From: Thermoproteota archaeon
GTDB taxonomy: Archaea > Thermoproteota > Nitrososphaeria > Nitrososphaerales > Nitrososphaeraceae
Length of the DNA stretch: 64,000 nucleotides
Reading direction: 5' to 3'
Assembly (NCBI GenBank): GCA_046724555.1
Contig: JBKOWU010000017.1
Coordinates: 229-64,228 of the forward strand
In this document: positions 29,957 through 64,000 of the stretch, piece by piece
Layout of the letters: every line of letters starts with the position of its first letter
How positions within the stretch are numbered: position 1 is the stretch's first letter
Notes under the pieces: generated by a model
Databases searched by the model: none
The model's input: the letters and a program-made list of their open reading frames with translations, nothing else
What the model was told of the DNA's origin: nothing
Position numbers and translations under genes: made by a program

Positions 29957-29966
29957 TTTGATGAAT

Positions 29967-40181: not shown

Positions 40182-40586
40182 TCAGCCTTGTGGTAATAAT
40201 ACGTATTTGCATGGAGGGAAAGGACAATCAATATTTATCATCTCTTTTCGCACACTGTTATTATTATTATCAATTCTTATTTCAAACGTAATCTTCTTTA
40301 GACATTCTGGTACTCCTATCATAACCTGATCGACTGAGAGGACTTTTCTAGCATTACCTTTAATGCTTTTTATTGGTTTGTTGGCACGCAACTGCTCAAC
40401 TACGTATGCCAAGTAAATCATCAGACACTCATGAATGTTAATTCTAAGATTTTTAGAAAGCCTTTGCCTAATCATTTCTATAGCTTCAAAAAATATTGAT
40501 TCATCAGATTCGTCAGCATATTCAAAATGTCTTGTAAAAGGAGGGATATCGTCCTCTCCTTTGATTAGTGCTTTAACATAGATCAT
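40182..40586 (-). CDS. urease gamma subunit (UreA)-like protein, orphan, with N- and C-terminal extensions
   Basis: QRLSKNLRINIHECLMIYLAYVVEQLRANKPIKSIKGNARKVLSVDQVMIGVPECLKKITFEIRID...INIDCP aligns by eye with the UreA consensus RRLARGLKLNYPE.VALIS..I.EGARDGK.V..LM..G..VLT.EQVMEGVPEMI..IQVEATFPDG.KLVTVH.P. Its ATG overlaps the upstream gene's TGA (ATGA at 40586..40583). Confidence 0.7.
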   Translation of the reverse strand: MIYVKALIKGEDDIPPFTRHFEYADESDESIFFEAIEMIRQRLSKNLRINIHECLMIYLAYVVEQLRANKPIKSIKGNARKVLSVDQVMIGVPECLKKITFEIRIDNNNNSVRKEMINIDCPFPPCKYVLLPQG

Positions 40587-48376: not shown

Positions 48377-49447
48377 TTAGGATGCTCTAACCATAGTTAC
48401 CAGGCTTCTTATATCGGTAGGAATTTTGTCTACGTTTCCTTGTGCAATAGGTTTGATGTAATTTAGCCCTTGGCTTTGTAGTATATGTTGACCATCACTT
48501 GATAGCAAGTATGTTACAAAAGATACAGCATCAGCTAACTTGTTAACAGTAGCTTCGGGTATAGTAACTGAAAAATATATAGGTTCGCCATATATCGTCT
48601 TGCCTGTGTTTGTAGTATATGAGGCCTTTCTATAAATGTCAGAAAAAGCTGGATCTCTTAGGTTAATTTGAGAAGGTAGTCTGATATATGGTAGACCTTT
48701 GGCTATGGCTTCGTGTTTGTAAGCAGCTATTGCATCTAATTGACCGGTCTCCAAAGTAGTTGCAAGAGTTTCTTCTGGGAATATTTGTCTAGGGTTCCTA
48801 TCTTGTCCTAAAATACTTTGCTTGATATTCTTGTCATTATAATATGTATTGGCTAGTTTGGCAGCAATAACCATATAGTATCCTTTTGGATCTAGTTCTG
48901 GATCAGTTCTTCCGAACTTAAAACCTGGCTGTGATAAAGCTCGATACCATGGTATCAGTCCTTTCTTTGCCTTATCTAAGTCAAGATGGAAATGGCTAGT
49001 AGGCGAATACGCAATTACCATTTCAGCTGATGCGAACTTGACTAACCATTGTGCAAGAGGTTGATTGAGCTGTTGGTTACCTATACCACCATCAGCATTA
49101 TTATTATTATTATTCATCATCAACTTCATAATTGGAATGGTTCCTGCGCTAACGAAAACATCCGGTCTTCTTTGACCATCTAGGATCATATTGGCAATTT
49201 GAACAGATCCTCTTCCTTCGCCACTATATGTATAACCTGTTTTCTTTTCATACGATGGCCCTAAACCTAAAGTTTGTTCAAATGTCTTTATAAGAGAAGC
49301 AGCATACATCACAAAGACTTTTCCTTTAGTTTGTTGGGTTTGCTGCGCATTTGAAACTATGACGATGCTATGTGCGGTTGTAGAGAACACAATAGTAAAA
49401 GTCAGGACTGCTAAAAGATTGAATTTAATAGGAGTTTGAATTTGCAA
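48377..49447 (-). CDS. periplasmic-type solute-binding protein, molybdate/tungstate (WtpA/ModA)-like
   Basis: A signal anchor is followed by KVFVMYAASLIKTFEQ...GEGRGSVQIANMILDGQRRPDVFVSAG, the pattern of oxyanion-binding SBPs. It contains an N6 insertion. Confidence 0.7.
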   Translation of the reverse strand: MQIQTPIKFNLLAVLTFTIVFSTTAHSIVIVSNAQQTQQTKGKVFVMYAASLIKTFEQTLGLGPSYEKKTGYTYSGEGRGSVQIANMILDGQRRPDVFVSAGTIPIMKLMMNNNNNNADGGIGNQQLNQPLAQWLVKFASAEMVIAYSPTSHFHLDLDKAKKGLIPWYRALSQPGFKFGRTDPELDPKGYYMVIAAKLANTYYNDKNIKQSILGQDRNPRQIFPEETLATTLETGQLDAIAAYKHEAIAKGLPYIRLPSQINLRDPAFSDIYRKASYTTNTGKTIYGEPIYFSVTIPEATVNKLADAVSFVTYLLSSDGQHILQSQGLNYIKPIAQGNVDKIPTDIRSLVTMVRAS

Positions 49448-51431: not shown

Positions 51432-51923
51432 TTATACTAGTGTATGATCCACGTCATCATAGTTGAGTTGGTTATTGGTAAGCCAGCTCTGAAATTTATC
51501 ATCGATGAATTTGTGAAATTGCCAGAAGCGTTTCATATAGATATTCTTTTTTGGATCTGAAAAATTTCGGCCGTATTTACGAGTATTCCTATGTATAAGG
51601 TTATGCCACCCTTCAAGAGCGTTCGAAAACTCTACTGACTTGAGGATGGAATCTATGACTGGTCTATAAGGTGGAGAAGTATTGGTCATAGGGCCAGCAG
51701 TCAAAGAGGTATCAAACCTTGGGATGTAGACTGTAAGCACTTCATGATGGAATGAGATAAAGCCAATTGGAGAGCCTCCAAAAGTGCCAGAACCAGTCAT
51801 CATTTCATCCATATGCCATTTTGAATGTATAGTTGCAAATCTGTCCAAGAATTTAGTTTTCGTTCCATCAGATATTAGCTGCAACCGTTCTCTCAAATCA
51901 GTTACTACAGGTTCAATAACCAA
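51432..51923 (-). CDS. compact tyrosinase-like (type-3 copper) domain protein
   Basis: A CuA-like segment (IHSKWH ... GFISFHHEVL) and a CuB-like segment (EGWHNLIHRN ... DP...FWQFHKFIDDKFQSW) give six candidate His ligands in 163 aa. The start is TTG and is uncertain. Confidence 0.55.
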   Translation of the reverse strand: MVIEPVVTDLRERLQLISDGTKTKFLDRFATIHSKWHMDEMMTGSGTFGGSPIGFISFHHEVLTVYIPRFDTSLTAGPMTNTSPPYRPVIDSILKSVEFSNALEGWHNLIHRNTRKYGRNFSDPKKNIYMKRFWQFHKFIDDKFQSWLTNNQLNYDDVDHTLV

Positions 51924-52052: not shown

Positions 52053-53303
52053 CTAGGTTAGATGATATTTTGCTCCATAGGCATGAAGAGCTTTCTTGAA
52101 TGCATCAATAGGAGGTCTTACTAATCCTGCGCCTATCATACCAATACCTGGTTCCTTGTGTGCAATTGCAGTATCAATAACAGGCAATATCCCTGTCTTC
52201 AATACCTTTCGAAGATCAATCCCAGTGCCTGTTCCCTCAAAATCAAGGATCGGAAGAGAAAACATATCATTTAGTATCATTGTAATCTCCCGCATTTGCT
52301 TGGTATATTTTATAGCATCTTCAGCTGATCCACCAATCAACGATAAAATTGCAGGAGAGTCTGCAAGAGCAAAGCCTCCTATTCCGGCTGTCTCTGTTAT
52401 GGCACTGTCACCCATATCCAGATTTGCATCATCAGATCCATAACCCGGGAAATATACCCCATCAATGATGCTGGCCGGCCCCACGAACCACTTATTACCT
52501 AATGCGCTGACCTTTATCCCAAAATCAGTCCCATTTCTGGCCATGGCAGTAACAAGTGTGCTGTATTCAATTTCACTTGCCGCATTCATAGTTGCTTTGC
52601 AAGCAGCCATACTCATGCATAAAAAGAATATCTCATTTTCAGAAAAGTATTTTGCAATCTTTACTAAATTATCCCTATCTTCAACTTCTATAAGATATGG
52701 CATTACTACACTGGCGAACAATAACGTCCCAGCAGCAGGTCTATTATGTAATTCATCCCCCATGTGCAAAGCCTTTGCCATTATACTCTTTAAATCCAAT
52801 CCTTTGCTCTTCCTAATTGCTTTTCCCAAACCAGGCGCCAATGTTTCTGACCAAAACTTCAAGGTTTCTACTGCATCCATATCAAAACGTCCAAACTGAA
52901 CCCTGTCCTCCACAAAACGGCCATAACATATGTTTCCATACGTATCATTTTTTACAACTAATACAGGCATTGATGGTGAGATAACGCCAGCCATAGGACC
53001 GACAGCATCATGATCGTGATTCGGAGAAAATTCAATTTCTTCATATTCAATCATCTTCACGGCTTGAGTCCAATTTTCGGCTAACTCTTCATAAATCATG
53101 GTACCTATTATAGCACCTTTCATAGGACCACACATTCTCTTCCATTCAATCGGAGGGCCAGCATGAAATATCGAATTCTTTTTCATATTGGGCAAGACAT
53201 CGATAGCTGGTTTTATATCAAGCAACAGCGGCCGCGATTTAAGAATCTTTTCTGTTGCTATTTTATTTGCTTCTTCTATCTTATTTTTTATAGGTTTATC
53301 CAT
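52053..53303 (-). CDS. ylbE: DUF1116 protein (E. coli YlbE/AllG-like)
   Basis: FHAGPPIEWKRMCGPMKGA, HDAVGPMAGVISPSMPVLVVKN, MGDELHNR, VTAMARNGTDFGIKVS, DMGDSAITETAGIGG and IAHKEPGIGMIGAG are collinear with the YlbE sequence as I recall it. Confidence 0.85.
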   Translation of the reverse strand: MDKPIKNKIEEANKIATEKILKSRPLLLDIKPAIDVLPNMKKNSIFHAGPPIEWKRMCGPMKGAIIGTMIYEELAENWTQAVKMIEYEEIEFSPNHDHDAVGPMAGVISPSMPVLVVKNDTYGNICYGRFVEDRVQFGRFDMDAVETLKFWSETLAPGLGKAIRKSKGLDLKSIMAKALHMGDELHNRPAAGTLLFASVVMPYLIEVEDRDNLVKIAKYFSENEIFFLCMSMAACKATMNAASEIEYSTLVTAMARNGTDFGIKVSALGNKWFVGPASIIDGVYFPGYGSDDANLDMGDSAITETAGIGGFALADSPAILSLIGGSAEDAIKYTKQMREITMILNDMFSLPILDFEGTGTGIDLRKVLKTGILPVIDTAIAHKEPGIGMIGAGLVRPPIDAFKKALHAYGAKYHLT

Positions 53304-53353
53304 TTTGATTTATCCCAATTTCCATTTTTTGGTTTAAGCAAGACAATGAAAAT

Positions 53354-54295
53354 TCATGGTACGATATGAGTTCCGGTGGTACCGTTTAACGACTCTGAAA
53401 GCCTTTTCAGATTACCAATTATAGCCTCTTCCCCGCCATTTTCTATAAATTTTATAGAAGCCCGTACTTTTGGACCCATACCACCTTCTTCTAAATCTGC
53501 TATCTTAAGTTTATTAATTTCATTAAGTCTTATCTTTGAAACAAGCTGTTGGTTACTCTTACCATAATTCTCGTACAGACCATCTACATCTGTTAAAAGT
53601 ACCAACTTTGTCGCACCAATAAGTGTTGCCAATCTTTCACTTGCAAGGTCTTTATCTATCACTGCATCTACGCCAATAAGAGTATCGTTCTTCTGTATCA
53701 CTGGTATGCCTCCGCCACCACATGCAATCACTAGGAATCCCGCATCGACCATTGTACGAATTGCATGTGATTCAATTATGTGAAGCGGCTTTGGAGATGG
53801 TACTACTCGCCTGTATCCTCTACCCGTATACTCCTTTATTGTCCAGTCAGGTCGTTCAGCCATAATCGAGGCAACTTGATCATCATTGAAGAACGGACCG
53901 ATAGGCTTAGTTGGATTTTGAAAAGCGGGATCATTCTTATCAACCTTGACTCTAGTTATTAGAGTAATGACTTCCTTATCCATTCCTCTGGTATTCAGTA
54001 TATTTTTTAATGATTGTTGGATCATGTAGCCTATCCAGCCCTGGGTTTGTGCCCCACATGCATCGATCGGAAAAGGAGGTGCATACTTCTTGGCGATTTC
54101 ATTTTTCAAAAGAATATATCCTACTTGAGGTCCGTTCCCATGAGTTACCACTACTCTGTAGCCTTGAATTAGATCCGCTATTTTACTTGCAGCAGGTTGG
54201 AAATTTGCATCCTGCTCTTCAAAGCTTCCACTTTGTCCACTTTGAAGTAACGCATTTCCTCCCAATGCAATAACTAAAGGATCGGGAGAGATCAA
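53354..54295 (-). CDS. arcC: carbamate kinase
   Basis: VIALGGNAL, VVVTHGNGPQVG, RRVVPSPKP, ACGGGGIPV and DKDLASE... are canonical carbamate kinase motifs. The start is TTG. Confidence 0.9.
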   Translation of the reverse strand: MISPDPLVIALGGNALLQSGQSGSFEEQDANFQPAASKIADLIQGYRVVVTHGNGPQVGYILLKNEIAKKYAPPFPIDACGAQTQGWIGYMIQQSLKNILNTRGMDKEVITLITRVKVDKNDPAFQNPTKPIGPFFNDDQVASIMAERPDWTIKEYTGRGYRRVVPSPKPLHIIESHAIRTMVDAGFLVIACGGGGIPVIQKNDTLIGVDAVIDKDLASERLATLIGATKLVLLTDVDGLYENYGKSNQQLVSKIRLNEINKLKIADLEEGGMGPKVRASIKFIENGGEEAIIGNLKRLSESLNGTTGTHIVP

Positions 54296-54424
54296 GAAGG
54301 ATATTTGTTTGCTCGCTTATTTAACAGTATTTAATAACTCTACCGAAAATTTTCATTTATCATAATGTTAAAAAATTATTATTTATATACATGTAATTCT
54401 TCTATAAAAGTATCACAAAAATCA

Positions 54425-55426
54425 TCATATTGTCACTTTAGTTTCCCTTTTACGTGGAAATATGCTAAGAAGTTCTGTGTGGAATTCTCGATCAATAAAT
54501 GTATACAATGCAGCAGTCATGCCTATACCAATATCAGATCCTGATGTATGTCCTCTATAACTGATTTGACGTAATAAAGAGATATACTTCTCTGGATCTC
54601 CAGTAAATATAGAATTTATCATTTCCTGAATTTGCTCATCTACAATACATTTTTCATAATACTCTATGAATTTAGAGCTCATCCATGTTGTGCTGCGGGA
54701 CAGCTTCTTACTATGCAATATTACGGGGGCAGTATGTAAAAAATCAGATAAATTGTTAAATAGTACACAATAACCAGATATAAAATCGTCACCAGAGGGA
54801 GTATATCCTGGTCCTCTCCCACAGAGTTCAAGCAATCTATTTGATATTATCTCGACAAACTTTTTACTATCTTCAATAGATGTACAATGTTGTAATTGCA
54901 CTAAGGTTTTGGATAATAATCCAGTAGTGGTAAAATCAGGATCTAACAAGCAACCTCTTCTAGCTGTTTTCAACAGTGTATCGAATATCTTATCACTAAC
55001 ATTAACATTAACAAATCTTTTCAGTAGCTCATAACAAGGTCTTTCAAAATTATTCTTGTAAATTGTAGATTTGTTGATGTTTATAAGAATAGCCGTCCCT
55101 ATCGATAACGTTTCATTATCTTGTTTCCTTAACTTGGATCCGTAAGACACAATTTGTCTGAATCCACTGGATATGTTAGACACTGGAAATACATTCATAC
55201 TAATAGGTGATCGAATTTTTCCTAATGTAATAACCAAAAGTTCATCGTTAATCATTTTGATATTCATATTAGTATCAAAAACACTGATGACCTTGCCGAG
55301 ACATTTGTGTGCTGCAGCTATAGATATTTGTGGTAAATATCGGCATCCTATCCAGCGACAATCAAGTAAGCATTTATTTTTTTCATGTGAAATCCAGTCA
55401 TCGTTCCCCATAAACGCATTTTTCAA
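54425..55426 (-). CDS. ylbF: DUF2877 protein (E. coli YlbF/AllH-like)
   Basis: CGRGPGYTPSGDDFISGY and the C-terminal HTSGSDIGIGM match the DUF2877 signature (G.GPGLTP.GDDfl.G). It lies within the fdrA/DUF1116 operon. Confidence 0.7.
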   Translation of the reverse strand: MKNAFMGNDDWISHEKNKCLLDCRWIGCRYLPQISIAAAHKCLGKVISVFDTNMNIKMINDELLVITLGKIRSPISMNVFPVSNISSGFRQIVSYGSKLRKQDNETLSIGTAILININKSTIYKNNFERPCYELLKRFVNVNVSDKIFDTLLKTARRGCLLDPDFTTTGLLSKTLVQLQHCTSIEDSKKFVEIISNRLLELCGRGPGYTPSGDDFISGYCVLFNNLSDFLHTAPVILHSKKLSRSTTWMSSKFIEYYEKCIVDEQIQEMINSIFTGDPEKYISLLRQISYRGHTSGSDIGIGMTAALYTFIDREFHTELLSIFPRKRETKVTI

Positions 55427-55432
55427 TTTTAC

Positions 55433-55603
55433 CTAGAGTATTTTGGAGAGAATGTCCTCGGTCTCCTTATCGAGTTTTGTAGCTGGTTTCCAATCAACTT
55501 GAACTACAGTTACACTTTGATCTTGCAGAGAATGAAAGAAGATGTCAAGACCAAGATTTATGACAGTCAGTTTCGAATTAAATAAATCGTGTTTAACCAA
55601 CAA
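55433..55603 (-). CDS. unlisted 56-codon ORF wedged between fdrA and the DUF2877 gene
   Basis: The frame reads (L)LVKHDLFNSKLTVINLGLDIFFHSLQDQSVTVVQVDWKPATKLDKETEDILSKIL*. TTG starts at 55603 and 55600 overlap the fdrA stop (55595..55593), and its TAG (55435..55433) lies 6 nt before the DUF2877 ATG. It resembles the N-terminal extension of longer DUF1116 proteins; that comparison is from memory and unverified. Confidence 0.5.
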   Translation of the reverse strand: MLVKHDLFNSKLTVINLGLDIFFHSLQDQSVTVVQVDWKPATKLDKETEDILSKIL

Positions 55604-57239
55604 TGCCACCTAAGTCAATGTATTTAGCATAAATCTGTTCTAAATCTATCTTGCCTCTGGAAGCTATTGTTGCAGATGCAATTGTTGCGAAAGCGTTACT
55701 TGGCATGACAATTACACCCGACCTTTTGAGCAGCTGTACACTAGACTCATAATTTTGGGGATCTTTTTTAGTGCCGCATATATGAGCCATTATGCTGAGG
55801 TACCTGCCTTCCCTCTCTGCATATTTTTTTGCATCCTTGATTTCGTTTATAATTGCCCCAACAGGATCAGGGTTCGATCCGTAGCCCAAGACAAAATCCA
55901 ATAATATTACTGCTACTTTTGAGTCTACAGATTCATCGATTAATCTTAGTTTTCTTATAGTTGGATCTATCATAGGATGCGCCCTTCCTTCGGTAAATTC
56001 CTCCTCTCCTAAATCAATAACAGAATTCATCTGACTTTTTGAAGTATCAAATAAAGCTTGCGAACCACCAATAGGAACATTCGAGTAGATATGTTTTAAA
56101 GGGATTCCATTTAAAATCATCTGAGCTTCATAGGTAAAAGTGCCTCCTGTAAGAAGTGCTCTTACATATTTCTGATTCTTTTGCAATTTTAGCCATTCCT
56201 TTTCCAATCTCTTACGCAAAGTCTTTGAGGGAATGTAAATTGCCTCTATTGCTTTTTTGAAATTGTTTTCACCCAACTGCTTTGCAACAGCTAATACAGA
56301 AGACGTCAGGGTGTTTACTTCAGTTACCTTCCGTTTTTTAACATGATAGTTGGTCATTTCTGTTGTGCCCATAAAAGTTAGAACATAATCTTTATTCCCC
56401 TTGTTTACGATGTAGCTAGTAATTTTTTCTTTTACCTGAGAAGAAGGCGGCTTCGATACTATATCAATTATTTCGATATCCTCGCAAGCCTCCAATGCTT
56501 TTATTGATTCTATGATCATTATTCCTCCTATCTCGTCCTTGGGATCATTTCCCCCAACCCCCAATCCATGTTTAATACCAATTTCGCATTGATCTAGTAG
56601 CGTGGAGACTTCTTGTAATCCGGTGCCGGCTGCTGCGACAATTCCAACAGGCCCATTTCTTATTATATTTGAAAAACCTATACCTTTGCCGTTAATGATA
56701 GACGTTCCGGATCCTGGGCCTAAAACTAAAATGCCATTATTGGAAGCATATTTCTTTATTGCCAGCTCGTCTGATATAGATACATGGTCGCTGAATATGT
56801 GTTGATGGATGCCAGCATCGATTAACCTTAAGGAAAGATCCTTTACATATTCACCAGGAATAGAGATTAGAGCTAAATTAGCATTAGGCATAGATGTTAA
56901 TGCAGAATCTAGATCCAAAATTTGACCACTTTGGTCTGGGCCATGTATTCTGTCAGTTCCTTCAAGTAAATTGTCAAGCCTTGTCAAGACCGACTCTAAT
57001 GATCTTTTATCCTGCGCCTTGATAGCTATTATTGAATCAGATTCCTTTGCATGTTTAATTTTATCTTCAGGAAAGCCAAGTTTGACTAGGATTTGCTTAT
57101 TCGTCCTCGTACCCATTATGACAGCTGCCTCTTGTATTCCAGGTTGGCGTTTAATATTGCTAGATATTTTCATTAGCTGAAGCGAATCTCTGTAAAAATT
57201 CTGCTTAATTTTCACATGATAGAGAACTTCAGATCGCAA
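55593..57239 (-). CDS. fdrA: FdrA-like acyl-CoA synthetase/succinyl-CoA-ligase-fold protein (E. coli FdrA/AllF-like)
   Basis: HVKIKQNFYRDSLQLMKIS...AAVIMGT aligns with the FdrA N-terminus, and the SCS-alpha-like core is GPVGIVAAAGTGLQEVSTLL...GLGVGGND. I place the start at TTG 57239 (548 aa). The listed ORF runs to 57413, but that extra N-terminus is hydrophobic junk in AT-rich promoter DNA. Confidence 0.85.
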   Translation of the reverse strand: MRSEVLYHVKIKQNFYRDSLQLMKISSNIKRQPGIQEAAVIMGTRTNKQILVKLGFPEDKIKHAKESDSIIAIKAQDKRSLESVLTRLDNLLEGTDRIHGPDQSGQILDLDSALTSMPNANLALISIPGEYVKDLSLRLIDAGIHQHIFSDHVSISDELAIKKYASNNGILVLGPGSGTSIINGKGIGFSNIIRNGPVGIVAAAGTGLQEVSTLLDQCEIGIKHGLGVGGNDPKDEIGGIMIIESIKALEACEDIEIIDIVSKPPSSQVKEKITSYIVNKGNKDYVLTFMGTTEMTNYHVKKRKVTEVNTLTSSVLAVAKQLGENNFKKAIEAIYIPSKTLRKRLEKEWLKLQKNQKYVRALLTGGTFTYEAQMILNGIPLKHIYSNVPIGGSQALFDTSKSQMNSVIDLGEEEFTEGRAHPMIDPTIRKLRLIDESVDSKVAVILLDFVLGYGSNPDPVGAIINEIKDAKKYAEREGRYLSIMAHICGTKKDPQNYESSVQLLKRSGVIVMPSNAFATIASATIASRGKIDLEQIYAKYIDLGGIVG

Positions 57240-57610
57240 GCTATATTCCAGCAGTATTTTACATAAATTAATATATAAGCTTAAAAAAGATAACAATTTA
57301 AAGGCATAAAACAAAATCTGGAGCATTAACTCGTGATTTTTTATTGATGGCATACCGTCTTTCAGCAAAAACAATGTATCTTGTGATATAATCTCCTTTG
57401 TATTCATTAACAAATTTATGCACCAAATAACATTGAAAAATAAAAAAATTTAATAGAGTATAAAAATATAACATCTATTGAACACCTTCTAACATAAGGA
57501 TGACCAGATAAGACCGACATATGTGACGCAAAATTATTTTTTTATGATATAACATATTTTTGAGGAAAATTTCAAACAAACTATAATAGGACGCATAAGA
57601 TCAATGCTGT

Positions 57611-58657
57611 ATGCACTTAAAAGAAAGTGTAGACTTACGTATTTGTCTCTTCTCCGTCATAGCAACAGCCTTAATTCTAGGACTCAGCAACGCATTTCAA
57701 TTGTCACCCAATACTCATGCACAACCAGCACCACTAAAGGTAGCATTTGTGACTGATGGCAAATTCAGTGATGGAGGATGGGGGGCGGCTGGTTTTAACG
57801 GTATGCAAGCACTAGTAAAAAAATACCATATAGATCTTAAAACAGCAGATGGCGTGGCAATACCCGATACTGAAAATACGCTAAGAGGATATGGTGATAC
57901 TGGCTTTAATTTAATTATTGCTCAAGGTTTTCAATGGGGAGATCCTGCAATTAAAGTTGCACCGGATTATCCAGATGCAAAATTTGTAATTATGACTGGA
58001 CTTGTTAAAGCTACTAATGTAGCTTCAATATTTCCAATGCAGCAAGAAGGATCATTTCTCTTAGGATCGCTTGCCGCAATGATGTCTAAAACAGGGACAA
58101 TAGGTTTTGTTGGCGGACAGGAGTATCCCAACGTTGTTAATATTGTTGAGGGCTACAAGCAAGGTGCAAAATACATAAATCCAAAGATAAAAATACTTAC
58201 TTCGTACGTTGGCGAGTGGAATAATCCTGCAAAGGGTAAAGAAACAGCACTCGCTCAAATAAATTCTGGTTCGGATTTCCTGCTTCACGTTGCAGATACC
58301 TCTGGACATGGTGTCATTGACGCGGCAAAAGACAAGGGTATTTATGCATTTGGTGCTGTATCAGACCAAAATAGATTGGCGCCAAATGCAGTGCTTACTT
58401 CTTTTGTATTAGACATGGATAAGGCGTATGATCAAGCTTATACACAAGCTAAAAATGGTCAATTCAAAGGAGAAATATCCAAGCCGGGATTAGAACCATC
58501 CAAGGGTGCTCCTGGTGATGGCATAGTGTATTTAGCACCATTTCATGATTTGGATAGTAAAGTGCCTCAGAATGTAAAAACTAAATTAACTCAATTGACT
58601 CAGGATATTATCAATAAAAAGATTACAGTTCCAGAAAGAACTACGGCCACTCCTTGA
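57611..58657 (+). CDS. BMP-family (PnrA/Med-like) ABC substrate-binding lipoprotein
   Basis: A signal anchor is followed by KVAFVTDGKFSDGGWGAAGFNG ... IGFVGGQEYPNVVNIVEGYKQGAKYINP ... GAVSDQ, typical of basic-membrane-protein nucleoside/purine binders. Confidence 0.88.
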   Translation: MHLKESVDLRICLFSVIATALILGLSNAFQLSPNTHAQPAPLKVAFVTDGKFSDGGWGAAGFNGMQALVKKYHIDLKTADGVAIPDTENTLRGYGDTGFNLIIAQGFQWGDPAIKVAPDYPDAKFVIMTGLVKATNVASIFPMQQEGSFLLGSLAAMMSKTGTIGFVGGQEYPNVVNIVEGYKQGAKYINPKIKILTSYVGEWNNPAKGKETALAQINSGSDFLLHVADTSGHGVIDAAKDKGIYAFGAVSDQNRLAPNAVLTSFVLDMDKAYDQAYTQAKNGQFKGEISKPGLEPSKGAPGDGIVYLAPFHDLDSKVPQNVKTKLTQLTQDIINKKITVPERTTATP

Positions 58658-58676
58658 TTTTTTTGATCCATACGAA

Positions 58677-60326
58677 ATGAATCATGAAACATCGGCGATT
58701 TCAAACATAACAACGAAATATTTTAGAAAATTCAAGAGGGATAATGCTCTTGAGCAAGTAGATCATCAGACGGGTACTCCGTCAAGCATTGAGCATGATG
58801 GAGATCGGCTTGTCATTATGAAAGGAATTAGCTGTAGGTTTGGTGAGTTGATGGCAAATGACAACGTCAACTTTGATTTGATGAAAGGCGAGATTCATGC
58901 ACTTCTTGGTGAAAATGGAGCCGGAAAAACAACATTAATGAGCATATTATATGGCATGTATCAACCAACCTCAGGAAATATTTACGTGAGGGGAAATCGT
59001 GTTGCAATTAAGTCGCCTTTACATGCTATTGATCTTGGGATTTCAATGGTACATCAACACTTCTTATTGACTCCGCCTCATACCGTTACTGAAAATATAA
59101 TTGTGGGGTTAAAAACGAATAGAAGGATTTTCTTAGATACACAAAACGCTGAGAAAAAGATTCTATCACTATCCAATAAATATGGGCTTGAGGTAAATCC
59201 TAATGCAATTGTTGGCAATTTATCTGTAGGTGAGCAGCAACGTGTCGAAATAATAAAAGCTCTCTACAGAGATGTAGATGTACTAATTCTTGATGAGCCG
59301 ACTGGAATGCTTACGCCTAAGGAGGAAGAAGCATTATTTGTAGTGTTAAAATCGATGGTAAAGCAAGGCTTGTCTATTATATTTATAACTCATAAGCTAA
59401 GAGAAGTGATGGAAGTAAGTGACAGAGTTACCGTCTTAAGGAACGGTAAAGTTATTGGCACAGTTAAAACAACTGATACTAGTGAGACAGAACTGGCAAG
59501 AATGATGATAGGAAGATCGTTTGTTAACCAGACCAGTATAGAAAGTTCAGCAAATAACCAATCTGATACAATTCTCGAGTTAAAGAATGTGTATGCGGCA
59601 AATAATTCAAATGTATTATTTATTAAAGACCTTTCTCTTGAGTTGCATAAAGGAGAAATTTTAGGTATAGCAGGAGTAGATGGCAACGGTCAAAGTGAAC
59701 TTGCTGAATTGATATCAGGTTTGAGGAAAATGCGCAGCGGACAAATTATCATGGATTCCAAACCTATTGAAAACATCTCTCCAAAACATATTCGAGAATG
59801 GGGTCTAGCTTATGTGCCTGAAGATCGCCTTCACACTGGGCTAATTTTGGAATACACTATTGCAGAAAATTTGGTTCTTGATAGATGGTACGCTGAACCT
59901 TATTCGGGGAAATTATTCTTGAAGAAGCATGAAATGAAAGAATTCGCAGAAAAGATGATCTCCGATTTTGATATAAAAATAACTGGATTAAGCGCTTCGG
60001 TCAGATCAATGTCTGGGGGCAATTTACAAAAAATTGTTCTTGCAAGAGAGCTGTCAAGAAATCCTAAAGTCCTGGTTGTCCACAATCCAACTAGAGGCTT
60101 AGATATAGGTGCTACAGAATATGTTCATAGACAGTTAATTAAACAAAGGGACAATGGAGTAGGGGTCTTGTTGTTGTCGCTCGATCTAGATGAAATCCTC
60201 TCTATTAGTGACAGAATAGGAGTAATATATGAAGGTAAAATAGTTACAATTGTCGAAAGAGAAAAAGCTGATGTCGATCAGTTGGGTCTTTTAATGGGCG
60301 GTAAAGTAGCAGAGTCCAATTTATGA
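58677..60326 (+). CDS. ABC transporter ATPase, duplicated ATP-binding cassette (CUT2/nucleoside type)
   Basis: Cassette 1 has GENGAGKTT, LSVGEQQRVEI and LILDEPT. Cassette 2 has GVDGNGQSEL, MSGGNLQKIVLAR and a degenerate Walker B. The N-terminal ~45 aa may not be translated. Confidence 0.9.
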   Translation: MNHETSAISNITTKYFRKFKRDNALEQVDHQTGTPSSIEHDGDRLVIMKGISCRFGELMANDNVNFDLMKGEIHALLGENGAGKTTLMSILYGMYQPTSGNIYVRGNRVAIKSPLHAIDLGISMVHQHFLLTPPHTVTENIIVGLKTNRRIFLDTQNAEKKILSLSNKYGLEVNPNAIVGNLSVGEQQRVEIIKALYRDVDVLILDEPTGMLTPKEEEALFVVLKSMVKQGLSIIFITHKLREVMEVSDRVTVLRNGKVIGTVKTTDTSETELARMMIGRSFVNQTSIESSANNQSDTILELKNVYAANNSNVLFIKDLSLELHKGEILGIAGVDGNGQSELAELISGLRKMRSGQIIMDSKPIENISPKHIREWGLAYVPEDRLHTGLILEYTIAENLVLDRWYAEPYSGKLFLKKHEMKEFAEKMISDFDIKITGLSASVRSMSGGNLQKIVLARELSRNPKVLVVHNPTRGLDIGATEYVHRQLIKQRDNGVGVLLLSLDLDEILSISDRIGVIYEGKIVTIVEREKADVDQLGLLMGGKVAESNL

Positions 60327-61399
60327 GAGGATCAAACAGTTTAAAAATGAAAGTCGAATTGCAAAAAAAACGACCGAAACTCTTGTCCTTTGCCCCATAC
60401 ATGTCCGCTGGTTTCGCTTTTCTGATAGGTGCAGTAATACTTTCTTTTTCTGGTATTGATCCAATAGTTGCTTACGGCGTCATGCTAAAAGGAGCTTTTG
60501 GAAACATGCGGGGCATAGCGGACACACTTGTCAAAACTACCCCGTTACTTCTAACAGGATTAGGAGTAGCATTAGCATTTAAGTGTAGAATATGGAATAT
60601 AGGTGCAGAAGGACAGCTCTACATGGGTGCACTGGGCGCTGCTTTAGCAGGTATCTCAGCGATCGGTGCAGTGCCAATAGTAGGCGTTACTGTTGCTTTA
60701 ATTATTGGATTTATTTTCGGAGCTTCTATTGGATTGGTACCGGCTTTACTTAAAGTCAAGCTTGGAGTCAACGAAATAATTGTTACTGTTTTATTGAACT
60801 TTATTGTGCTTCTCTTTATTACCTATTTATTACATGGGCCTATAAAAGCTCCTGGCTTTAACCCATACAGTCCTGAAATTTTTCCTCAGTCACAGCTGCC
60901 TATTATACTACCTCATACTCGTCTGCATGCGGGGATAATCATTGCCGCATTAGCGACCATCGCAACGCACTTACTGTTATCTAAAACCAAAATTGGCTTT
61001 GAGATTAAGAGTGTTGGCGCAAATATCAAGGCTGCTAGATATGCTGGCATGAATGTTTCTAAGAGTATACTGGTAGTTATGGGAATTAGCGGCGGGCTTG
61101 CTGGACTAGCCGGTGCAGTCCTAGTAACAGGTGTACAGCGCTATTTAATCGAAGGAATTTCTCCAGGATATGGTTTTATAGCAGTAATAGTAGCGTTGCT
61201 GGGTAGACAACATCCTATAGGCGTAGCAATAGTGGCATTTTTCTTCGCTGCTCTTATTTCGGGATCTGAGGTAATGTATAGAACATTGGGTATACCCAGC
61301 TCTTTTGCTACGACACTCCAGGCATTAGTGCTGATTTTTGTTCTCATAGGCGAATTATTTACTCGTCTTCCAGTTACAAAAAGGGGAGGCGTCATATAA
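60323..61399 (+). CDS. ABC transporter permease (BMP/CUT2 system, first subunit)
   Basis: A 358-aa polytopic protein. Its start overlaps the ATPase stop by 4 bp (ATGA). Confidence 0.88.
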   Translation: MRGSNSLKMKVELQKKRPKLLSFAPYMSAGFAFLIGAVILSFSGIDPIVAYGVMLKGAFGNMRGIADTLVKTTPLLLTGLGVALAFKCRIWNIGAEGQLYMGALGAALAGISAIGAVPIVGVTVALIIGFIFGASIGLVPALLKVKLGVNEIIVTVLLNFIVLLFITYLLHGPIKAPGFNPYSPEIFPQSQLPIILPHTRLHAGIIIAALATIATHLLLSKTKIGFEIKSVGANIKAARYAGMNVSKSILVVMGISGGLAGLAGAVLVTGVQRYLIEGISPGYGFIAVIVALLGRQHPIGVAIVAFFFAALISGSEVMYRTLGIPSSFATTLQALVLIFVLIGELFTRLPVTKRGGVI

Positions 61400-61401
61400 A
61401 G

Positions 61402-62334
61402 CTGGTAGAATCTGATTTTATAATAGGTATAGTAGTATCGGGAATTCGTCTGAGTACACCTGTCATTTTTGCGGCCCTTGGAGAAACAATAGCTGAACGC
61501 GCAGGAGTATTAAATCTAGGGTTAGAAGGAATGATGTTGATGGGAGCATTTGGTGGTTTTATTGGAACTTATTTTACGGGAAATGTGTTTGTGGGTTTAT
61601 TATTGGCAATTTTCGGTCCGGCCTTAATGGCTATCTTAATGGCATTCATGAGTGTAACTCTACGAACTAATCAACTAGTCGCAGGATTGGCAATATGGCT
61701 CTTGGGTGTCGGATTAACAGCTTTGCTATTTAGATTAGCATTTGGAGTTGTAACAATAGCACCTAAAATAAATCAGGTTCCTGGCATAGACATTCCATTT
61801 CTAAGTCACATACCGATAATTGGCTCAGCAATATTTCGATACGATCCTTTTGTTTATTTGGCATTTTTACTAGTCCCGCTTATTCATATTTTTCTATTTA
61901 AGACAAGTCTAGGTTTGAGAATTAGAACTGTAGGAGAAAACCCCAGGCAAGCAGATGCATTAGGAGTAAACGTTTACAAAATACGTTATTTTGCAGTTAT
62001 GATAGGAGGCGTGCTTGCTGGTTTAGCCGGGTCGTACTTTGCTCTGGTCACAACAGGTTACTTTTTAGAAAATATTACTGCAGGTCAGGGATGGATTGCA
62101 CTTGCTGTAGTCATATTTGGTAGATGGAAACCGTTCTATGTATTATTGGGAGGTTTAACATTTGGATTCGTGGATGCCTTCCAATTAGGCCTGCAAGCTG
62201 TAGGAACTGCAGTCCCATCCCAATTTCTATTAATGCTTCCATATTTGATACCAATTGCAATATTGGCAGGAATGTATAAGAAAACTGCTGCACCAGCCGC
62301 ATTGGCTATACCATATAAAAGAGGAGAAAGATAA
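61402..62334 (+). CDS. ABC transporter permease (second subunit); start codon unresolved
   Basis: The conserved N-terminus (...GIRLSTPVIFAALGETIAERAGVLNLGLEGMMLMGAF) lies upstream of the first ATG (61531). Between the upstream stop (61276..61278) and 61531 the frame has no ATG/GTG/TTG, only ATA 61396 and CTG 61402. Confidence 0.8.
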   Translation: MVESDFIIGIVVSGIRLSTPVIFAALGETIAERAGVLNLGLEGMMLMGAFGGFIGTYFTGNVFVGLLLAIFGPALMAILMAFMSVTLRTNQLVAGLAIWLLGVGLTALLFRLAFGVVTIAPKINQVPGIDIPFLSHIPIIGSAIFRYDPFVYLAFLLVPLIHIFLFKTSLGLRIRTVGENPRQADALGVNVYKIRYFAVMIGGVLAGLAGSYFALVTTGYFLENITAGQGWIALAVVIFGRWKPFYVLLGGLTFGFVDAFQLGLQAVGTAVPSQFLLMLPYLIPIAILAGMYKKTAAPAALAIPYKRGER

Positions 62335-62488: not shown

Positions 62489-64000
62489 TTGACCATCGAT
62501 ACCCATGAGACTCATAGTGATGAAAAGACCGATGTATTGTATGGTATAGATAATGCTATTAATTTACTAATTAGTATTGTTTCTGGTGCAAAGACTATCT
62601 TATATGCTTGTATAGATTCTTCAGCCTCACAAGTAGACATGGGCAAGGTTGAGTTAATAAGAAAGACGATCCTGGATGCAAAAAATAGAGGAGTAAAGCT
62701 AAGATATGTTACAGAAATTACGAAGGATAACATACAATACTGGAAAGACTTAATGAAAATAATTGATGAACTTCGACATTTAGAAGGAGTTAAAGGCAAT
62801 TTTGCAACAAATGGAACTCAATATATAGATATTGCACTCCTACAACAGGCCAAGCCAGTAGTACAGATTATCTACAGTAATGTAAAAGCAGTAGTAGATC
62901 AGAATCTATATCTATTTGGAACTCTATGGGATAAAGCAACTCCAGCTGAACAGAAAATCAGAGAAATAGAAGAAGGAGTAAAGCAAGAATATTTTAAAGT
63001 TATTACTGATCACGAACAAGTGAGTAAGATCCTTGTTGAATTAGCCAAATCTGTAAAGCAAGAGGCGTTACTTGTTCTTCCAAACGACAGATCGATGGTG
63101 AGGTTAGACAGATTAGGAGTTATTGACTACACTATAAATGCATCACAAACAAATAGTGCAGATATAAGGATCATATGTCCACTATCTGAACTAAATTCCA
63201 GGGTTGTTAAAAAAATATTTGACAAAGCGCCTAACATCAAAATTCTTAATGGCATCAATTCTCCATATGGTATCTATATAGTTGATGGTCAAAAGTTTCT
63301 AAGAGTAGAGATGAGAGTAGCAGAGGCTGAAATTTTTTCAGAAGCGATTGGCTTAGCCTTTTACTCTAATAGCATACAAAGTACGGAATCATTTAAATCG
63401 ATATTTGAATTGCTTTGGAATGAGCGCACACTAAACGAAGAATTACGTAGAGCAGAGAAAATGCAAAAAGAGTTTATTAATATAGCAAGCCATGAAATAA
63501 AAACACCTACCCAAGCAATTTTGGGATATTCTGCGCTATTACAAAAGCATCCTGATAAAACAGAGCAAATATCAAAAGCACTATGCAGAAATGCTAAAAG
63601 ATTACAAAAGCTCACAGATGACATTTTAGACGTGTCACGAATTGAAAGTCAAGCGTTGAAACTAAACAAAGAACAATTTAATCTAAATGATGTAATCTCT
63701 CACATTGTAGAGGATTTTAGAAGTAATATAGAGGAGAAAGAATCTGGCAATATTGAATTAATTTATGAAGCCATCAAAAACAACAACGACCATTATAACG
63801 ATCTTTTGGTAGAGGCAGATAAAGCAAGAATAACACAGGTAATATCCAATCTATTAAGTAATGCTATTAAACATACTAAAGAAAGAGGGGGCGTGATATC
63901 TGTTGCTGCGGCAGTACAACAACCGATGGAAAATAATAGCGATAATGAAGTTATTGTTGTCAGTATAAAGGATACAGGCGAGGGTATAGATGCTGATATC
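62489..64000 (+). CDS. sensor histidine kinase with ~300-aa uncharacterised N-terminal domain (partial; runs off the right edge)
   Basis: The frame is open from TTG 62489 to the window end (504 codons). It has the H-box ASHEIKTPTQAILGYSALL, N-box-like ITQVISNLLSNAIKHT and ...KDTGEGIDADI. It is not in the ORF track because no stop falls within the window. Confidence 0.8.
   Translation, partial: MTIDTHETHSDEKTDVLYGIDNAINLLISIVSGAKTILYACIDSSASQVDMGKVELIRKTILDAKNRGVKLRYVTEITKDNIQYWKDLMKIIDELRHLEGVKGNFATNGTQYIDIALLQQAKPVVQIIYSNVKAVVDQNLYLFGTLWDKATPAEQKIREIEEGVKQEYFKVITDHEQVSKILVELAKSVKQEALLVLPNDRSMVRLDRLGVIDYTINASQTNSADIRIICPLSELNSRVVKKIFDKAPNIKILNGINSPYGIYIVDGQKFLRVEMRVAEAEIFSEAIGLAFYSNSIQSTESFKSIFELLWNERTLNEELRRAEKMQKEFINIASHEIKTPTQAILGYSALLQKHPDKTEQISKALCRNAKRLQKLTDDILDVSRIESQALKLNKEQFNLNDVISHIVEDFRSNIEEKESGNIELIYEAIKNNNDHYNDLLVEADKARITQVISNLLSNAIKHTKERGGVISVAAAVQQPMENNSDNEVIVVSIKDTGEGIDADI

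What the first reader, a model, noticed from the sequence alone, without database searches (positions are those of the whole stretch)
52053..62334. allFGH-like (FdrA / DUF1116 / DUF2877) + carbamate kinase operon divergently paired with a BMP-type ABC importer in an ammonia-oxidiser-like archaeon
Seen in the sequence: on the minus strand the order is fdrA-like, a mini-ORF, DUF2877, carbamate kinase, DUF1116. Gene junctions are tight: an overlap, then 6 nt, 128 nt and 50 nt. A ~370-bp AT-rich divergent promoter region separates this operon from a complete BMP-family ABC importer (binding protein, double-cassette ATPase, two permeases). A sensor kinase follows the importer. Established knowledge: in E. 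coli the fdrA-ylbE-ylbF trio of the allantoin regulon has been assigned to oxamate carbamoyltransferase. That enzyme converts oxalurate to oxamate plus carbamoyl phosphate. The adjacent carbamate kinase then turns carbamoyl phosphate into ATP, NH3 and CO2. BMP-family binding proteins typically bind purine nucleosides or nucleobases. Inference: this locus could let a chemolithoautotrophic ammonia oxidiser import a purine- or ureide-type compound. It would then harvest both substrate-level ATP and free ammonia, which is its respiratory substrate. I am not aware of that coupling being described for Nitrososphaeria. Caveats: no allantoinase, allantoate amidohydrolase or ureidoglycolate dehydrogenase is present in this window. 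Gene order also differs from E. coli, so the true substrate may be another carbamoylated compound.
Basis: partly seen in the sequence, partly recalled or inferred. Interest (0 to 1): 0.78.

Follow-up and report, generated by a model that had tools for sequence, protein, structure and literature searches.

The report
Archaeal ureide-to-ammonia-plus-ATP gene cluster
A soil archaeon of the ammonia-oxidiser family carries a real importer-plus-enzyme gene cluster that probably splits a urea-like compound into ammonia and ATP, but the same cluster was already described in these archaea in 2025 and its substrate is still untested.

Summary
The minus strand carries AllF/FdrA, a 58-aa ORF, AllH/DUF2877, carbamate kinase and AllG/DUF1116. 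A 371-bp, 26% GC spacer separates them from a divergent Bmp-type ABC importer, which is followed by a sensor kinase cut by the window end. HMMs confirm every family. Flanking genes and codon usage are archaeal (Nitrososphaeraceae), so this is not contamination.

The functional reading is reasonable but unproven: a ureide is phosphorolysed to carbamoyl phosphate, which yields ATP, NH3 and CO2. The claim that this is undescribed is out of date. An mSystems 2025 paper (PMC12625717) reports allFGH-allK next to bmpA-nupABC in ammonia-oxidising archaea, including cultured Nitrososphaera viennensis. NCBI already names the N. viennensis protein an AllH-family subunit.

Added here:
- The mini-ORF is a genuine gene, not a frameshift. 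It is the roughly 45-residue C-terminal module of E. coli AllF. It stands alone in 14 of 14 archaeal loci, is fused to the AllG N-terminus in 26 bacterial loci, and sits in AllF-mini-AllG fusions in two.
- The binding protein's closest solved relative is the guanine/hydroxyatrazine binder AtzT. The aromatic sandwich is kept but the hydrogen-bonding residues differ.
- No allantoin-pathway, urease or amo gene lies in the window.

Verdict: a new member of a known kind, of modest interest.

The parts
52053..53303 (-). AllG (DUF1116/YlbE-type) subunit, 416 aa
   Evidence: Pfam PF06545 AllG, E 8.5e-78. 41% identical to E. coli YlbE/AllG over 409 aa. Matches PDB 3clq at 2.9e-121. 69% identical to the N. 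viennensis 'YlbE family protein'.
53354..54295 (-). Carbamate kinase (allK/arcC type), 313 aa
   Evidence: TIGR00746 arcC equivalog, 397.7 bits, above the curated cut-off of 358.25. 42% identical to E. coli YbcF/AllK.
54425..55426 (-). AllH (DUF2877/YlbF-type) subunit, about 330 aa; exact start uncertain
   Evidence: Pfam PF11392 AllH, 69.3 bits against a cut-off of 25. 24% identical to E. coli YlbF over the C-terminal 130 aa only. Invariant GPGxTPxGDD and RGHTSGxD motifs in 46 homologues. The AlphaFold2 model has pLDDT 88.7 and no PDB fold match.
55433..55609 (-). 58-aa mini-gene: the detached C-terminal module of AllF
   Evidence: Matches FdrA profile positions 506-553 of 555 and E. coli FdrA 511-554. 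It is a separate ORF after the AllF stop in 14 of 14 archaeal loci, in differing relative frames. It is fused to the AllG N-terminus in 26 bacterial loci, stands alone in 15, and is part of an AllF-mini-AllG fusion in 2. A search of 1.84 billion cluster representatives gave 86 hits at E <= 1e-3, mostly 51-75 aa proteins. It is annotated as NVIE_015950 in N. viennensis. No Pfam family covers it.
55593..57239 (-). AllF (FdrA-type) subunit, 548 aa from TTG 57239 (the mechanical ORF extends to 57413)
   Evidence: NCBIfam NF004760 FdrA, E 1.2e-113, 380 bits; this is below the curated cut-off of 433. 31% identical to E. coli FdrA from its residue 1. Pfam CoA_binding and Ligase_CoA, plus a precomputed HMA_AllF_N hit on the same protein in L001. 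The succinyl-CoA synthetase alpha phospho-histidine loop is absent; a conserved GRxHPMIDP motif is present.
57240..57610 (.). Divergent intergenic region, 371 bp, 26% GC, with candidate archaeal TATA-like boxes near each gene start
   Evidence: Composition. Alignment with L011 and L012 shows conserved blocks: TTATATATT about 35 nt upstream of the AllF TTG, and CTATAATAGG about 26 nt upstream of the Bmp ATG. Promoter function is inferred, not shown.
57611..58657 (+). Bmp/PnrA-family substrate-binding protein with a hydrophobic N-terminal anchor, 348 aa
   Evidence: Pfam PF02608 Bmp, 214 bits. The best solved relative is AtzT 6pi5 (1.1e-37), while PnrA/TmpC 2fqw scores only 7e-20. The AtzT stacking residues Tyr45 and Trp194 align with Trp and Trp. 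The hydrogen-bonding residues Ser97, Glu165, Asn218 and Asn220 align with Gly, Asn, Asp and Ser.
58677..60326 (+). ABC ATPase with two cassettes, 549 aa
   Evidence: Two ABC_tran domains. The closest NCBIfam models (B6, sugar-type and related ATPases) all score below their cut-offs.
60323..61399 (+). Permease 1 (BPD_transp_2), 358 aa
   Evidence: Pfam PF02653, E 2e-43.
61402..62334 (+). Permease 2 (BPD_transp_2), about 310 aa, with a probable CTG start
   Evidence: Pfam PF02653. The NCBIfam match from the ATG at 61531 begins at profile position 47. The upstream frame is open and conserved. The window, L011 and L012 read AAG-CTG-GTA where other relatives read AAA-TTG-GTA.
62489..64000 (+). Sensor histidine kinase, cut by the window end; any link to the cluster is unproven
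   Evidence: HisKA (E 4e-15) and a partial HATPase_c domain. A HisKA kinase also lies next to AllG in L008 and L009.

Best explanation
This is a native Nitrososphaeraceae catabolic module for scavenging an organic-nitrogen compound.

Proposed mechanism, all of it inferred:
1. A binding-protein-dependent ABC importer takes up a small planar nitrogen-rich compound, a ureide or nucleobase-like molecule.
2. In the cytoplasm, a carbamoyltransferase built from AllF, the 58-aa module protein, AllH and AllG cleaves an N-carbamoyl amide with phosphate. By homology with E. coli AllFGH the amide is oxalurate, giving oxamate plus carbamoyl phosphate.
3. Carbamate kinase then converts carbamoyl phosphate plus ADP into ATP, CO2 and NH3.
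4. The NH3 can be assimilated, or oxidised if the organism is an ammonia oxidiser.

Shown here: the gene families, their conserved arrangement, and that the mini-ORF is a real fourth gene.

Inferred: the enzyme activity, its direction, the substrate, and the link between the importer's ligand and the enzyme.
For: - Family HMMs: AllG 261 bits, AllH 69 bits, carbamate kinase above its equivalog cut-off, FdrA E 1e-113.
- Identity to the biochemically characterised E. coli AllF, AllG, AllH and AllK is 31, 41, 24 and 42%. The E. coli activity is taken from PMC11326118.
- The order Perm2-Perm1-ABC-Bmp, then divergently AllF-mini-AllH-CK-AllG, is conserved in L005, L011, L012, L014, L017, L020, L021, L028, L029 and L084.
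- Bmp importers also sit beside AllF and AllG in several bacteria: L033, L034, L040, L062 and L086. In L033 the set also includes an amidohydrolase and a xanthine-dehydrogenase-like subunit.
- Fusions of the mini module to AllF, to AllG or to both argue for a physical AllF-AllG complex.
- In Nitrososphaera species the carbamate kinase carries an inserted Bmp domain. Its pocket-aligned residues equal those of the window's binding protein, which ties the transporter's ligand to the kinase.
- The same hypothesis is published for ammonia-oxidising archaea.
Against: - No enzyme that would make oxalurate (allB/C/D/E/A) is in the window. According to PMC12625717, none is found in ammonia-oxidising archaeal genomes either.
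- AllF scores 380 bits, below the NCBIfam FdrA cut-off of 433.
- Archaeal AllG is closer to uncharacterised enzymes of anaerobic bacteria (about 50% identity) than to E. coli AllG (41%).
- No Bmp-family protein is known to bind oxalurate. The pocket differs from AtzT in all four hydrogen-bonding side chains.
- L008, L009 and L026 have AllG alone beside the transporter and a BiuH-like hydrolase.
- The N. viennensis orthologues are only weakly transcribed in ammonia-grown cultures. That fits an uninduced operon but is not positive evidence.
- No gene at the locus accounts for the fate of oxamate.
Confidence: 0.5

Rival explanations
1. The machinery is the same, but the substrate is a different N-carbamoyl compound. 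Candidates are biuret- or triuret-derived compounds such as allophanate or carboxybiuret, or a ring-opened heterocycle. That compound would be imported by the AtzT-like binding protein and phosphorolysed to carbamoyl phosphate.
For: - A BiuH-like isochorismatase (NCBIfam BiuH, 278 bits) lies next to the same transporter in L008, L009, L014, L020, L021 and L026.
- The 2025 paper finds allFGHK collocated with biuH in archaeal ammonia oxidisers and with triuret/biuret genes (trtA, biuH) in comammox bacteria.
- The closest solved binding protein binds guanine, ammeline and hydroxyatrazine.
- No source of oxalurate is encoded.
- Archaeal AllG is only 41% identical to the one characterised enzyme.
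Against: - The window itself has no biuH.
- The only biochemistry available for this enzyme family is on oxalurate/oxamate.
- No alternative substrate has been tested on any member.
Confidence: 0.3
2. The Bmp importer is an ordinary nucleoside or nucleobase salvage transporter. Its position next to the AllF-AllG operon has no functional meaning.
For: The Pfam family is named for the purine-nucleoside receptor PnrA, and most characterised members bind nucleosides.
Against: - The divergent pairing is conserved across many archaeal species and recurs in unrelated bacteria.
- A copy of this binding domain, with the same pocket-aligned residues, is inserted into the carbamate kinase of Nitrososphaera.
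- PnrA itself is a distant hit (7e-20), compared with AtzT at 1e-37.
Confidence: 0.1
3. The cluster works anabolically. Carbamate kinase makes carbamoyl phosphate from NH3, CO2 and ATP, and the AllFGH-like enzyme uses it to carbamoylate an amide or amine.
For: The E. coli enzyme was assayed in the synthetic direction, carbamoyl phosphate plus oxamate to oxalurate. That some archaea use carbamate-kinase-like enzymes anabolically comes from my own knowledge and was not tested here.
Against: - The partner is an uptake system that depends on a binding protein.
- In E. coli the physiological role is catabolic.
- The bacterial contexts are catabolic, with an amidohydrolase and a xanthine-dehydrogenase-like subunit.
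Confidence: 0.05
4. The locus is decaying: AllF is frameshifted and permease 2 has lost its start codon.
For: The mini-ORF overlaps the AllF stop in another frame. No ATG, GTG or TTG precedes the conserved N-terminus of permease 2.
Against: - The split is present in all 14 archaeal loci, with different relative frames and spacers, and in many bacteria. It is a called gene in the complete genome of N. viennensis.
- The CTG codon and the full-length permease sequence are conserved at 92-93% protein identity in L011 and L012.
Confidence: 0.03

Closest known systems
allFGH-allK / bmpA-nupABC (with or without biuH) clusters of ammonia-oxidising archaea and comammox Nitrospira (PMC12625717, mSystems 2025). 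In N. viennensis EN76 the locus is NVIE_015910-015980.
   Same: Same gene set, same divergent layout and same order, AllF-mini-AllH-CK-AllG. AllG is 69% and the binding protein 66% identical to the N. viennensis proteins. The proposed function is the same.
   Different: - The window has no adjacent BiuH-like hydrolase.
- Its carbamate kinase is a plain 313-aa enzyme, whereas N. viennensis has a 636-aa kinase with an inserted Bmp domain.
- In the passages of that paper that I read, the enzyme is treated as three genes and the small fourth ORF is not mentioned.
E. coli allFGHK operon: oxamic transcarbamylase AllF-AllG-AllH plus catabolic carbamate kinase AllK (PMC11326118, PMC9843812)
   Same: The four protein families are homologous (31, 41, 24 and 42% identity) and all lie in one operon.
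   Different: - Gene order is F-G-H-K in E. coli and F-mini-H-K-G here.
- In E. coli the 45-residue module is the C-terminus of AllF; here it is a separate gene.
- E. coli has the upstream allantoin genes allB/C/D/E next door; the window has none.
- E. coli has no Bmp importer at the locus.
AllH-AllF-(mini)-AllG clusters of anaerobic bacteria (Spirochaetota, Caldisericales, Deltaproteobacteria, Clostridia)
   Same: These are the closest non-archaeal AllG relatives, at about 50% identity. The mini module is often a stand-alone ORF of about 58 aa, and several loci carry a Bmp ABC importer.
   Different: - Gene order differs, and carbamate kinase is distant or absent from the locus.
- The mini module is often fused to AllG.
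- Some loci add ring-opening and oxidising enzymes: a cyclase, an amidohydrolase and a xanthine-dehydrogenase-like subunit in L033.
AtzT, the periplasmic binding protein of the Pseudomonas sp. ADP atrazine cluster (PDB 6pi5; PMC6834077)
   Same: It is the best solved relative of the window's binding protein (1.1e-37). The two aromatic residues that sandwich the planar ligand are conserved as Trp and Trp.
   Different: All four hydrogen-bonding side chains differ: Ser97, Glu165, Asn218 and Asn220 align with Gly, Asn, Asp and Ser. Guanine or hydroxyatrazine specificity therefore cannot be transferred.
Carbamate-kinase-coupled phosphorolytic pathways (arginine deiminase and agmatine deiminase pathways); the comparison comes from my own knowledge
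   Same: The logic is the same: a ureido compound is phosphorolysed to carbamoyl phosphate, which carbamate kinase turns into ATP, NH3 and CO2.
   Different: The transferase here is the unrelated multi-subunit AllFGH type, not an ornithine- or aspartate-transcarbamylase-fold enzyme.

Membership tests
AllFGH oxamate carbamoyltransferase (oxamic transcarbamylase) | AllG subunit (DUF1116, PF06545) | tested here: met
   261 bits against a cut-off of 27. 41% identical to E. coli AllG over 409 of 416 residues.
AllFGH oxamate carbamoyltransferase (oxamic transcarbamylase) | AllH subunit (DUF2877, PF11392) | tested here: met
   69.3 bits against a cut-off of 25. Only the C-terminal half aligns with E. 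coli AllH, at 24% identity.
AllFGH oxamate carbamoyltransferase (oxamic transcarbamylase) | AllF subunit with the FdrA domain order (N-terminal HMA-like, CoA-binding, CoA-ligase) | tested here: met
   31% identical to E. coli FdrA from residue 1 to 492. Pfam CoA_binding and Ligase_CoA, plus a precomputed HMA_AllF_N hit.
AllFGH oxamate carbamoyltransferase (oxamic transcarbamylase) | AllF reaches the curated NCBIfam FdrA (NF004760) cut-off as one polypeptide that includes the C-terminal module | tested here: not met
   380.5 bits against a cut-off of 433, with the match ending at profile position 497 of 555. The missing module is encoded by the separate 58-aa gene, which scores 24 bits. N. viennensis AllF behaves the same way at 373.7 bits.
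AllFGH oxamate carbamoyltransferase (oxamic transcarbamylase) | The three subunit genes are clustered with a carbamate kinase gene | tested here: met
   All lie within 52053..57239 on one strand.
AllFGH oxamate carbamoyltransferase (oxamic transcarbamylase) | Genomic context of allantoin or ureidoglycolate catabolism (allB/C/D/E) | tested here: not met
   tblastn with the E. coli AllA, AllB, AllC, AllD and AllE proteins finds nothing in the window at E <= 1e-4.
AllFGH oxamate carbamoyltransferase (oxamic transcarbamylase) | Catalyses oxalurate + phosphate <-> oxamate + carbamoyl phosphate | not testable with these tools
   This needs an enzyme assay. Only the E. coli enzyme has been assayed.
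Carbamate kinase (TIGR00746 arcC) | Score above the equivalog cut-off over the full length | tested here: met
   397.7 bits against 358.25, covering residues 7-312 of 313.
Bmp/PnrA-type ABC importer | Bmp binding protein, a two-cassette ATPase and two BPD_transp_2 permeases in one operon | tested here: met
   Permease 2 needs a non-canonical CTG start.
Bmp/PnrA-type ABC importer | Purine-nucleoside specificity | tested here: inconclusive
   The closest solved relative is the nucleobase/triazine binder AtzT. The aromatic sandwich is conserved and the polar contacts are not. No ligand data exist.
NCBIfam 'putative B6 ABC transporter' equivalogs | Scores above the curated cut-offs | tested here: not met
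   Binding protein 111.6 against 400. ATPase 495.7 against 670. Permeases 198.5 against 400 and 200.3 against 465.

The most novel reading that the evidence does not exclude
In Nitrososphaeraceae the enzyme is a four-subunit machine made of AllF, the 58-aa tether protein, AllH and AllG. Its true substrate is not oxalurate. It is the planar ureide or heterocycle-derived compound taken up by the AtzT-like importer, possibly from the biuret/triuret/allophanate family. Phosphorolysis of that compound would give these chemolithoautotrophs substrate-level ATP as well as NH3 for respiration. In Nitrososphaera the carbamate kinase would sense the same ligand directly through its inserted binding domain.
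Probability: 0.2. Interest if true: 0.65.

Novelty: new member of a known kind. Interest (0 to 1): 0.3.

Why it matters
If the pathway works as proposed, soil ammonia-oxidising archaea could feed on ureides released by plants and other microbes. Each molecule would yield both their respiratory substrate and one ATP by substrate-level phosphorylation. That would widen the set of compounds that drive nitrification.

That idea is already in the literature (2025), so this window mainly adds one more lineage that carries the cluster. The practical additions are threefold:
- The small ORF should be co-expressed as a fourth component in any reconstitution.
- The mini-module fusions predict an AllF-AllG contact.
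- The binding-protein pocket is neither AtzT-like nor PnrA-like in its polar residues, so ligand screening should not be limited to purine nucleosides.

Tried and rejected
- Rfam at gathering thresholds and ARAGORN found no RNA genes in the window.
- A frameshift or sequencing error as the cause of the AllF/mini split was rejected. The split occurs in all 14 archaeal loci, in relative frames 0, 1 and 2, and in complete N. viennensis genomes.
- Contamination was rejected on codon usage and archaeal flanking genes.
- Pfam at E <= 10 has no family for the mini module. NCBIfam has no model that hits AllG or AllH.
- A Foldseek search of the PDB with a confident AllH model gave no match at E <= 0.001; the best was E 0.026 with TM-score 0.12. 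The AllH fold therefore says nothing about mechanism.
- An AllF mechanism like succinyl-CoA synthetase was checked. The phospho-histidine loop of SucD has no counterpart in E. coli or N. viennensis AllF. This comes from a five-sequence alignment only.
- P0305, a 383-aa hit in the mini-module search, is an unrelated tandem-repeat protein and a false positive.
- My first guess at the kinase reading frame was wrong and was corrected.
- The sigma-70 promoter scanner was not used because the organism is an archaeon.
- The window's whole genome could not be searched for amo, urease or allD.

Full report
OBSERVATION

On the minus strand they are:
- AllG/DUF1116, 52053..53303.
- Carbamate kinase, 53354..54295.
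- AllH/DUF2877, 54425..55426.
- A 58-aa ORF, 55433..55609.
- An FdrA/AllF-type gene. Its mechanical ORF reaches 57413. Its homology with E. coli FdrA residue 1 and with the 547-aa N. viennensis protein begins at TTG 57239.

The junctions are a 17-nt overlap, then 6, 129 and 50 nt. The spacer to the divergent Bmp gene (57240..57610) is 371 bp at 26% GC, against 37% for the window.

On the plus strand lie a Bmp binding protein, a two-cassette ATPase and two BPD_transp_2 permeases. A HisKA/HATPase_c kinase follows and runs off the window end.

Profile searches confirm each family:
- AllG, 261 bits (cut-off 27).
- AllH, 69 bits (cut-off 25).
- Carbamate kinase TIGR00746, 397.7 bits (cut-off 358.25).
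- FdrA NF004760, E 1e-113. At 380 bits this is below that model's cut-off of 433.

IS THE BLOCK NATIVE, AND WHOSE IS IT?

The rest of the window encodes a thermosome, Nre, replication factor C, PAC2, a RIO kinase and other archaeal proteins. GC, GC3 and codon usage of the nine block genes match the other genes. The correlation is r = 0.94, against a half-versus-half baseline of 0.92.

The same AllG protein, with identical flanking proteins, is encoded on a 72-kb contig of NCBI assembly GCA_046731815.1 and on JGI metagenome contigs. The best named relatives of AllG and of the valyl-tRNA synthetase are all uncultured 'Nitrososphaeraceae archaeon' genomes. One neighbouring arginase-family protein falls in a 90% identity cluster with Candidatus Nitrosocosmicus proteins.

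The window holds no amo or urease gene. 'Ammonia oxidiser' is therefore an inference from family-level taxonomy. The 2025 paper also reports the same cluster in a Nitrososphaerales genome that lacks amo.

THE MINI-ORF

This is the main thing the tools add. The 58-aa product matches positions 506-553 of the 555-position FdrA profile and E. coli FdrA residues 511-554. It looks like a +1 frameshift of AllF, but it is not an error.
- In N. viennensis complete genomes it is a separately called 59-aa gene, 6 nt after the AllF stop. It is annotated there as NVIE_015950.
- In all 14 archaeal loci where the region is present, it is an ORF of its own after the AllF stop, in relative frames 0, 1 or 2.
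- In the bacterial loci recovered with AllG, the module is fused to the AllG N-terminus in 26, stands alone at about 58 aa in 15, and sits inside a single AllF-mini-AllG polypeptide in 2. In E. coli it is the AllF C-terminus.
- A single-sequence search of 1.84 billion cluster representatives returned 86 hits at E <= 1e-3. Most are 51-75 aa proteins, and one is a 564-aa AllF with the module at its C-terminus.
- No Pfam family covers it.

A module that moves between the end of one subunit and the start of another is classic fusion evidence. It suggests that AllF and AllG contact each other through it. In archaea it should be treated as a fourth gene of the system.

CONSERVATION OF THE LAYOUT

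The single genome-collection scan, with AllG as query, gave about 24 Nitrososphaeraceae/Nitrososphaerales loci at 66-89% identity. Bacteria followed at about 50% identity: Spirochaetota, Caldisericales, Deltaproteobacteria, Clostridia and others.

tblastn mapping shows the same arrangement in L005, L011, L012, L014, L017, L020, L021, L028, L029 and L084. The order is Perm2-Perm1-ABC-Bmp, then divergently AllF-mini-AllH-CK-AllG. L019 and L023 show the same operon but are cut within Bmp. A BiuH-like isochorismatase often lies beyond the permeases. The window has none.

Several bacterial loci also place a Bmp importer beside AllF and AllG. In L033 the set continues with a cyclase, an amidohydrolase and a xanthine-dehydrogenase-like molybdenum subunit. 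That is a heterocycle-catabolic context.

WHAT IT PROBABLY DOES

E. coli AllF-AllG-AllH is the only characterised member of the family. The purified complex interconverts oxamate plus carbamoyl phosphate with oxalurate. AllK is the catabolic carbamate kinase (PMC11326118).

By homology (31, 41, 24 and 42% identity) and by the presence of a bona fide carbamate kinase, the most likely chemistry here has two steps. An N-carbamoyl amide is phosphorolysed to carbamoyl phosphate. Carbamate kinase then makes ATP, NH3 and CO2. Which amide is cleaved is open.

Arguments against oxalurate specifically:
- No oxalurate-forming enzyme is in the window, nor, per the 2025 paper, in ammonia-oxidising archaeal genomes.
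- Archaeal AllG is closer to uncharacterised bacterial enzymes than to the E. coli one.
- The cluster keeps company with biuret/triuret genes in relatives.

The binding protein's best solved relative is AtzT (1e-37). PnrA scores only 7e-20. AtzT binds guanine, ammeline and 2-hydroxyatrazine between Tyr45 and Trp194 (PMC6834077). In the window protein both stacking positions are Trp. The four hydrogen-bonding side chains are replaced: Ser97, Glu165, Asn218 and Asn220 align with Gly, Asn, Asp and Ser. A planar ligand is plausible, but its identity cannot be read off.

Supporting a real link between importer and enzyme, the carbamate kinase of N. viennensis and two other Nitrososphaera genomes has a complete, circularly permuted Bmp domain inserted after residue ~139. 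Its pocket-aligned residues are identical to those of the window's binding protein.

Two mechanistic side checks gave limited results:
- AllF lacks a counterpart of the phospho-histidine loop of succinyl-CoA synthetase alpha and has a conserved GRxHPMIDP motif.
- AllH gives a confident model (pLDDT 88.7) with no fold match in the PDB. It carries invariant GPGxTPxGDD and RGHTSGxD motifs.

WHAT IS ALREADY KNOWN

'Floodplain nitrifiers harbor the genetic potential for utilizing a wide range of organic nitrogen compounds' (mSystems, Oct 2025, PMC12625717) reports the following:
- allFGH and allK are present in ammonia-oxidising archaeal genomes.
- They are collocated with bmpA-nupABC and often with biuH.
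- The cluster is present in cultured N. viennensis and in comammox Nitrospira.
- The paper proposes oxalurate degradation to ammonia.
- It notes that the upstream purine genes are absent.

NCBI already names the N. viennensis protein 'oxamate carbamoyltransferase subunit AllH family protein'. The N. viennensis annotation used in Reyes et al. [quoted passage not shown]

In that data set the cluster's expression values are about 3.3-6.4, while the neighbouring cofH genes are at 8.3-8.6. The file's legend ties these values to an RPKM colour scale of 0-15; I read them as log2 values. Low expression in ammonia-grown cells fits an uninduced catabolic operon but proves nothing.

In the library searched, no paper tests any of these compounds on an ammonia-oxidising archaeon.

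VERDICT

The locus is a new member of a kind described in 2025, and its function remains untested.

The modest new points are the status of the 58-aa gene, the fusion evidence for an AllF-AllG contact, the pocket comparison with AtzT, and the probable CTG start of permease 2.

Interest is 0.3.

Noticed in passing
window 61399..61531: Permease 2 has 44 conserved N-terminal residues upstream of its first ATG, with no ATG, GTG or TTG in that stretch. The window, L011 and L012 read AAG-CTG-GTA where L008, L026 and L028 read AAA-TTG-GTA. A CTG start, conserved in three related species, is likely.
   Followed up: partly
L005:7985-9895 (N. viennensis NVIE_015970); also L017, L018: The carbamate kinase is 636 aa. 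A complete, circularly permuted Bmp binding domain (C-lobe, then N-lobe) is inserted after kinase residue ~139. It is 65% identical to the window's binding protein, with the same pocket-aligned residues. The genome annotation already calls it a 'BmpA-like periplasmic binding domain'.
   Followed up: partly
L008:4009-11302, L009, L026: In these Nitrososphaeraceae loci AllG stands alone beside the Bmp importer and a BiuH-like isochorismatase, with no AllF, AllH or carbamate kinase nearby. Either the partners are elsewhere in the genome or AllG has a role of its own.
   Followed up: no
L072, L077 (bacterial loci): AllF, the mini module and AllG are in one continuous reading frame, that is, a triple fusion.
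   Followed up: partly
window 40583..41704 (-) and 42092..43612 (+): An arginase-family ureohydrolase is divergently paired with a sodium:solute symporter. Sources call the ureohydrolase agmatinase or guanidinobutyrase, and it scores below the NCBIfam agmatinase cut-offs. This may be a second organic-nitrogen scavenging module.
   Followed up: partly
window 54425..55426: AllH gives a confident AlphaFold2 model: an N-terminal beta domain and a C-terminal helical bundle. No solved structure has a similar fold (best Foldseek E 0.026). The copies in L001 and L003 differ from the window by an indel near the N-terminus, so the true start is uncertain.
   Followed up: partly
L033:7266-20971 (deltaproteobacterial genome): The gene order is AllH-AllF-mini-AllG, followed by a PF04199 cyclase, an Amidohydro_3 enzyme, a Bmp ABC importer and a xanthine-dehydrogenase-like molybdenum subunit. 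This looks like a fuller heterocycle degradation cluster.
   Followed up: partly
window 33763..34713, 36053..36604, 36699..37343: Two PsbP-like proteins and a cupin lie close together in this archaeal window. One of the PsbP matches is below the Pfam cut-offs.
   Followed up: no
window 48377..49447 and 28829..30773: A WtpA-like tungstate/molybdate binding protein (below cut-off) sits alone. A TOBE-domain ABC ATPase and a permease lie 18 kb away.
   Followed up: no
window 51432..51923: A 163-aa ORF immediately downstream of AllG has no Pfam or NCBIfam match. Among the loci examined it was found only in contigs L001-L004, where its protein sequence is identical to the window's.
   Followed up: no
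window 58677..58810: The ABC ATPase has an N-terminal extension of about 40-45 residues compared with the N. viennensis orthologue. The extension is conserved in L011, so the true start codon is uncertain.
   Followed up: no
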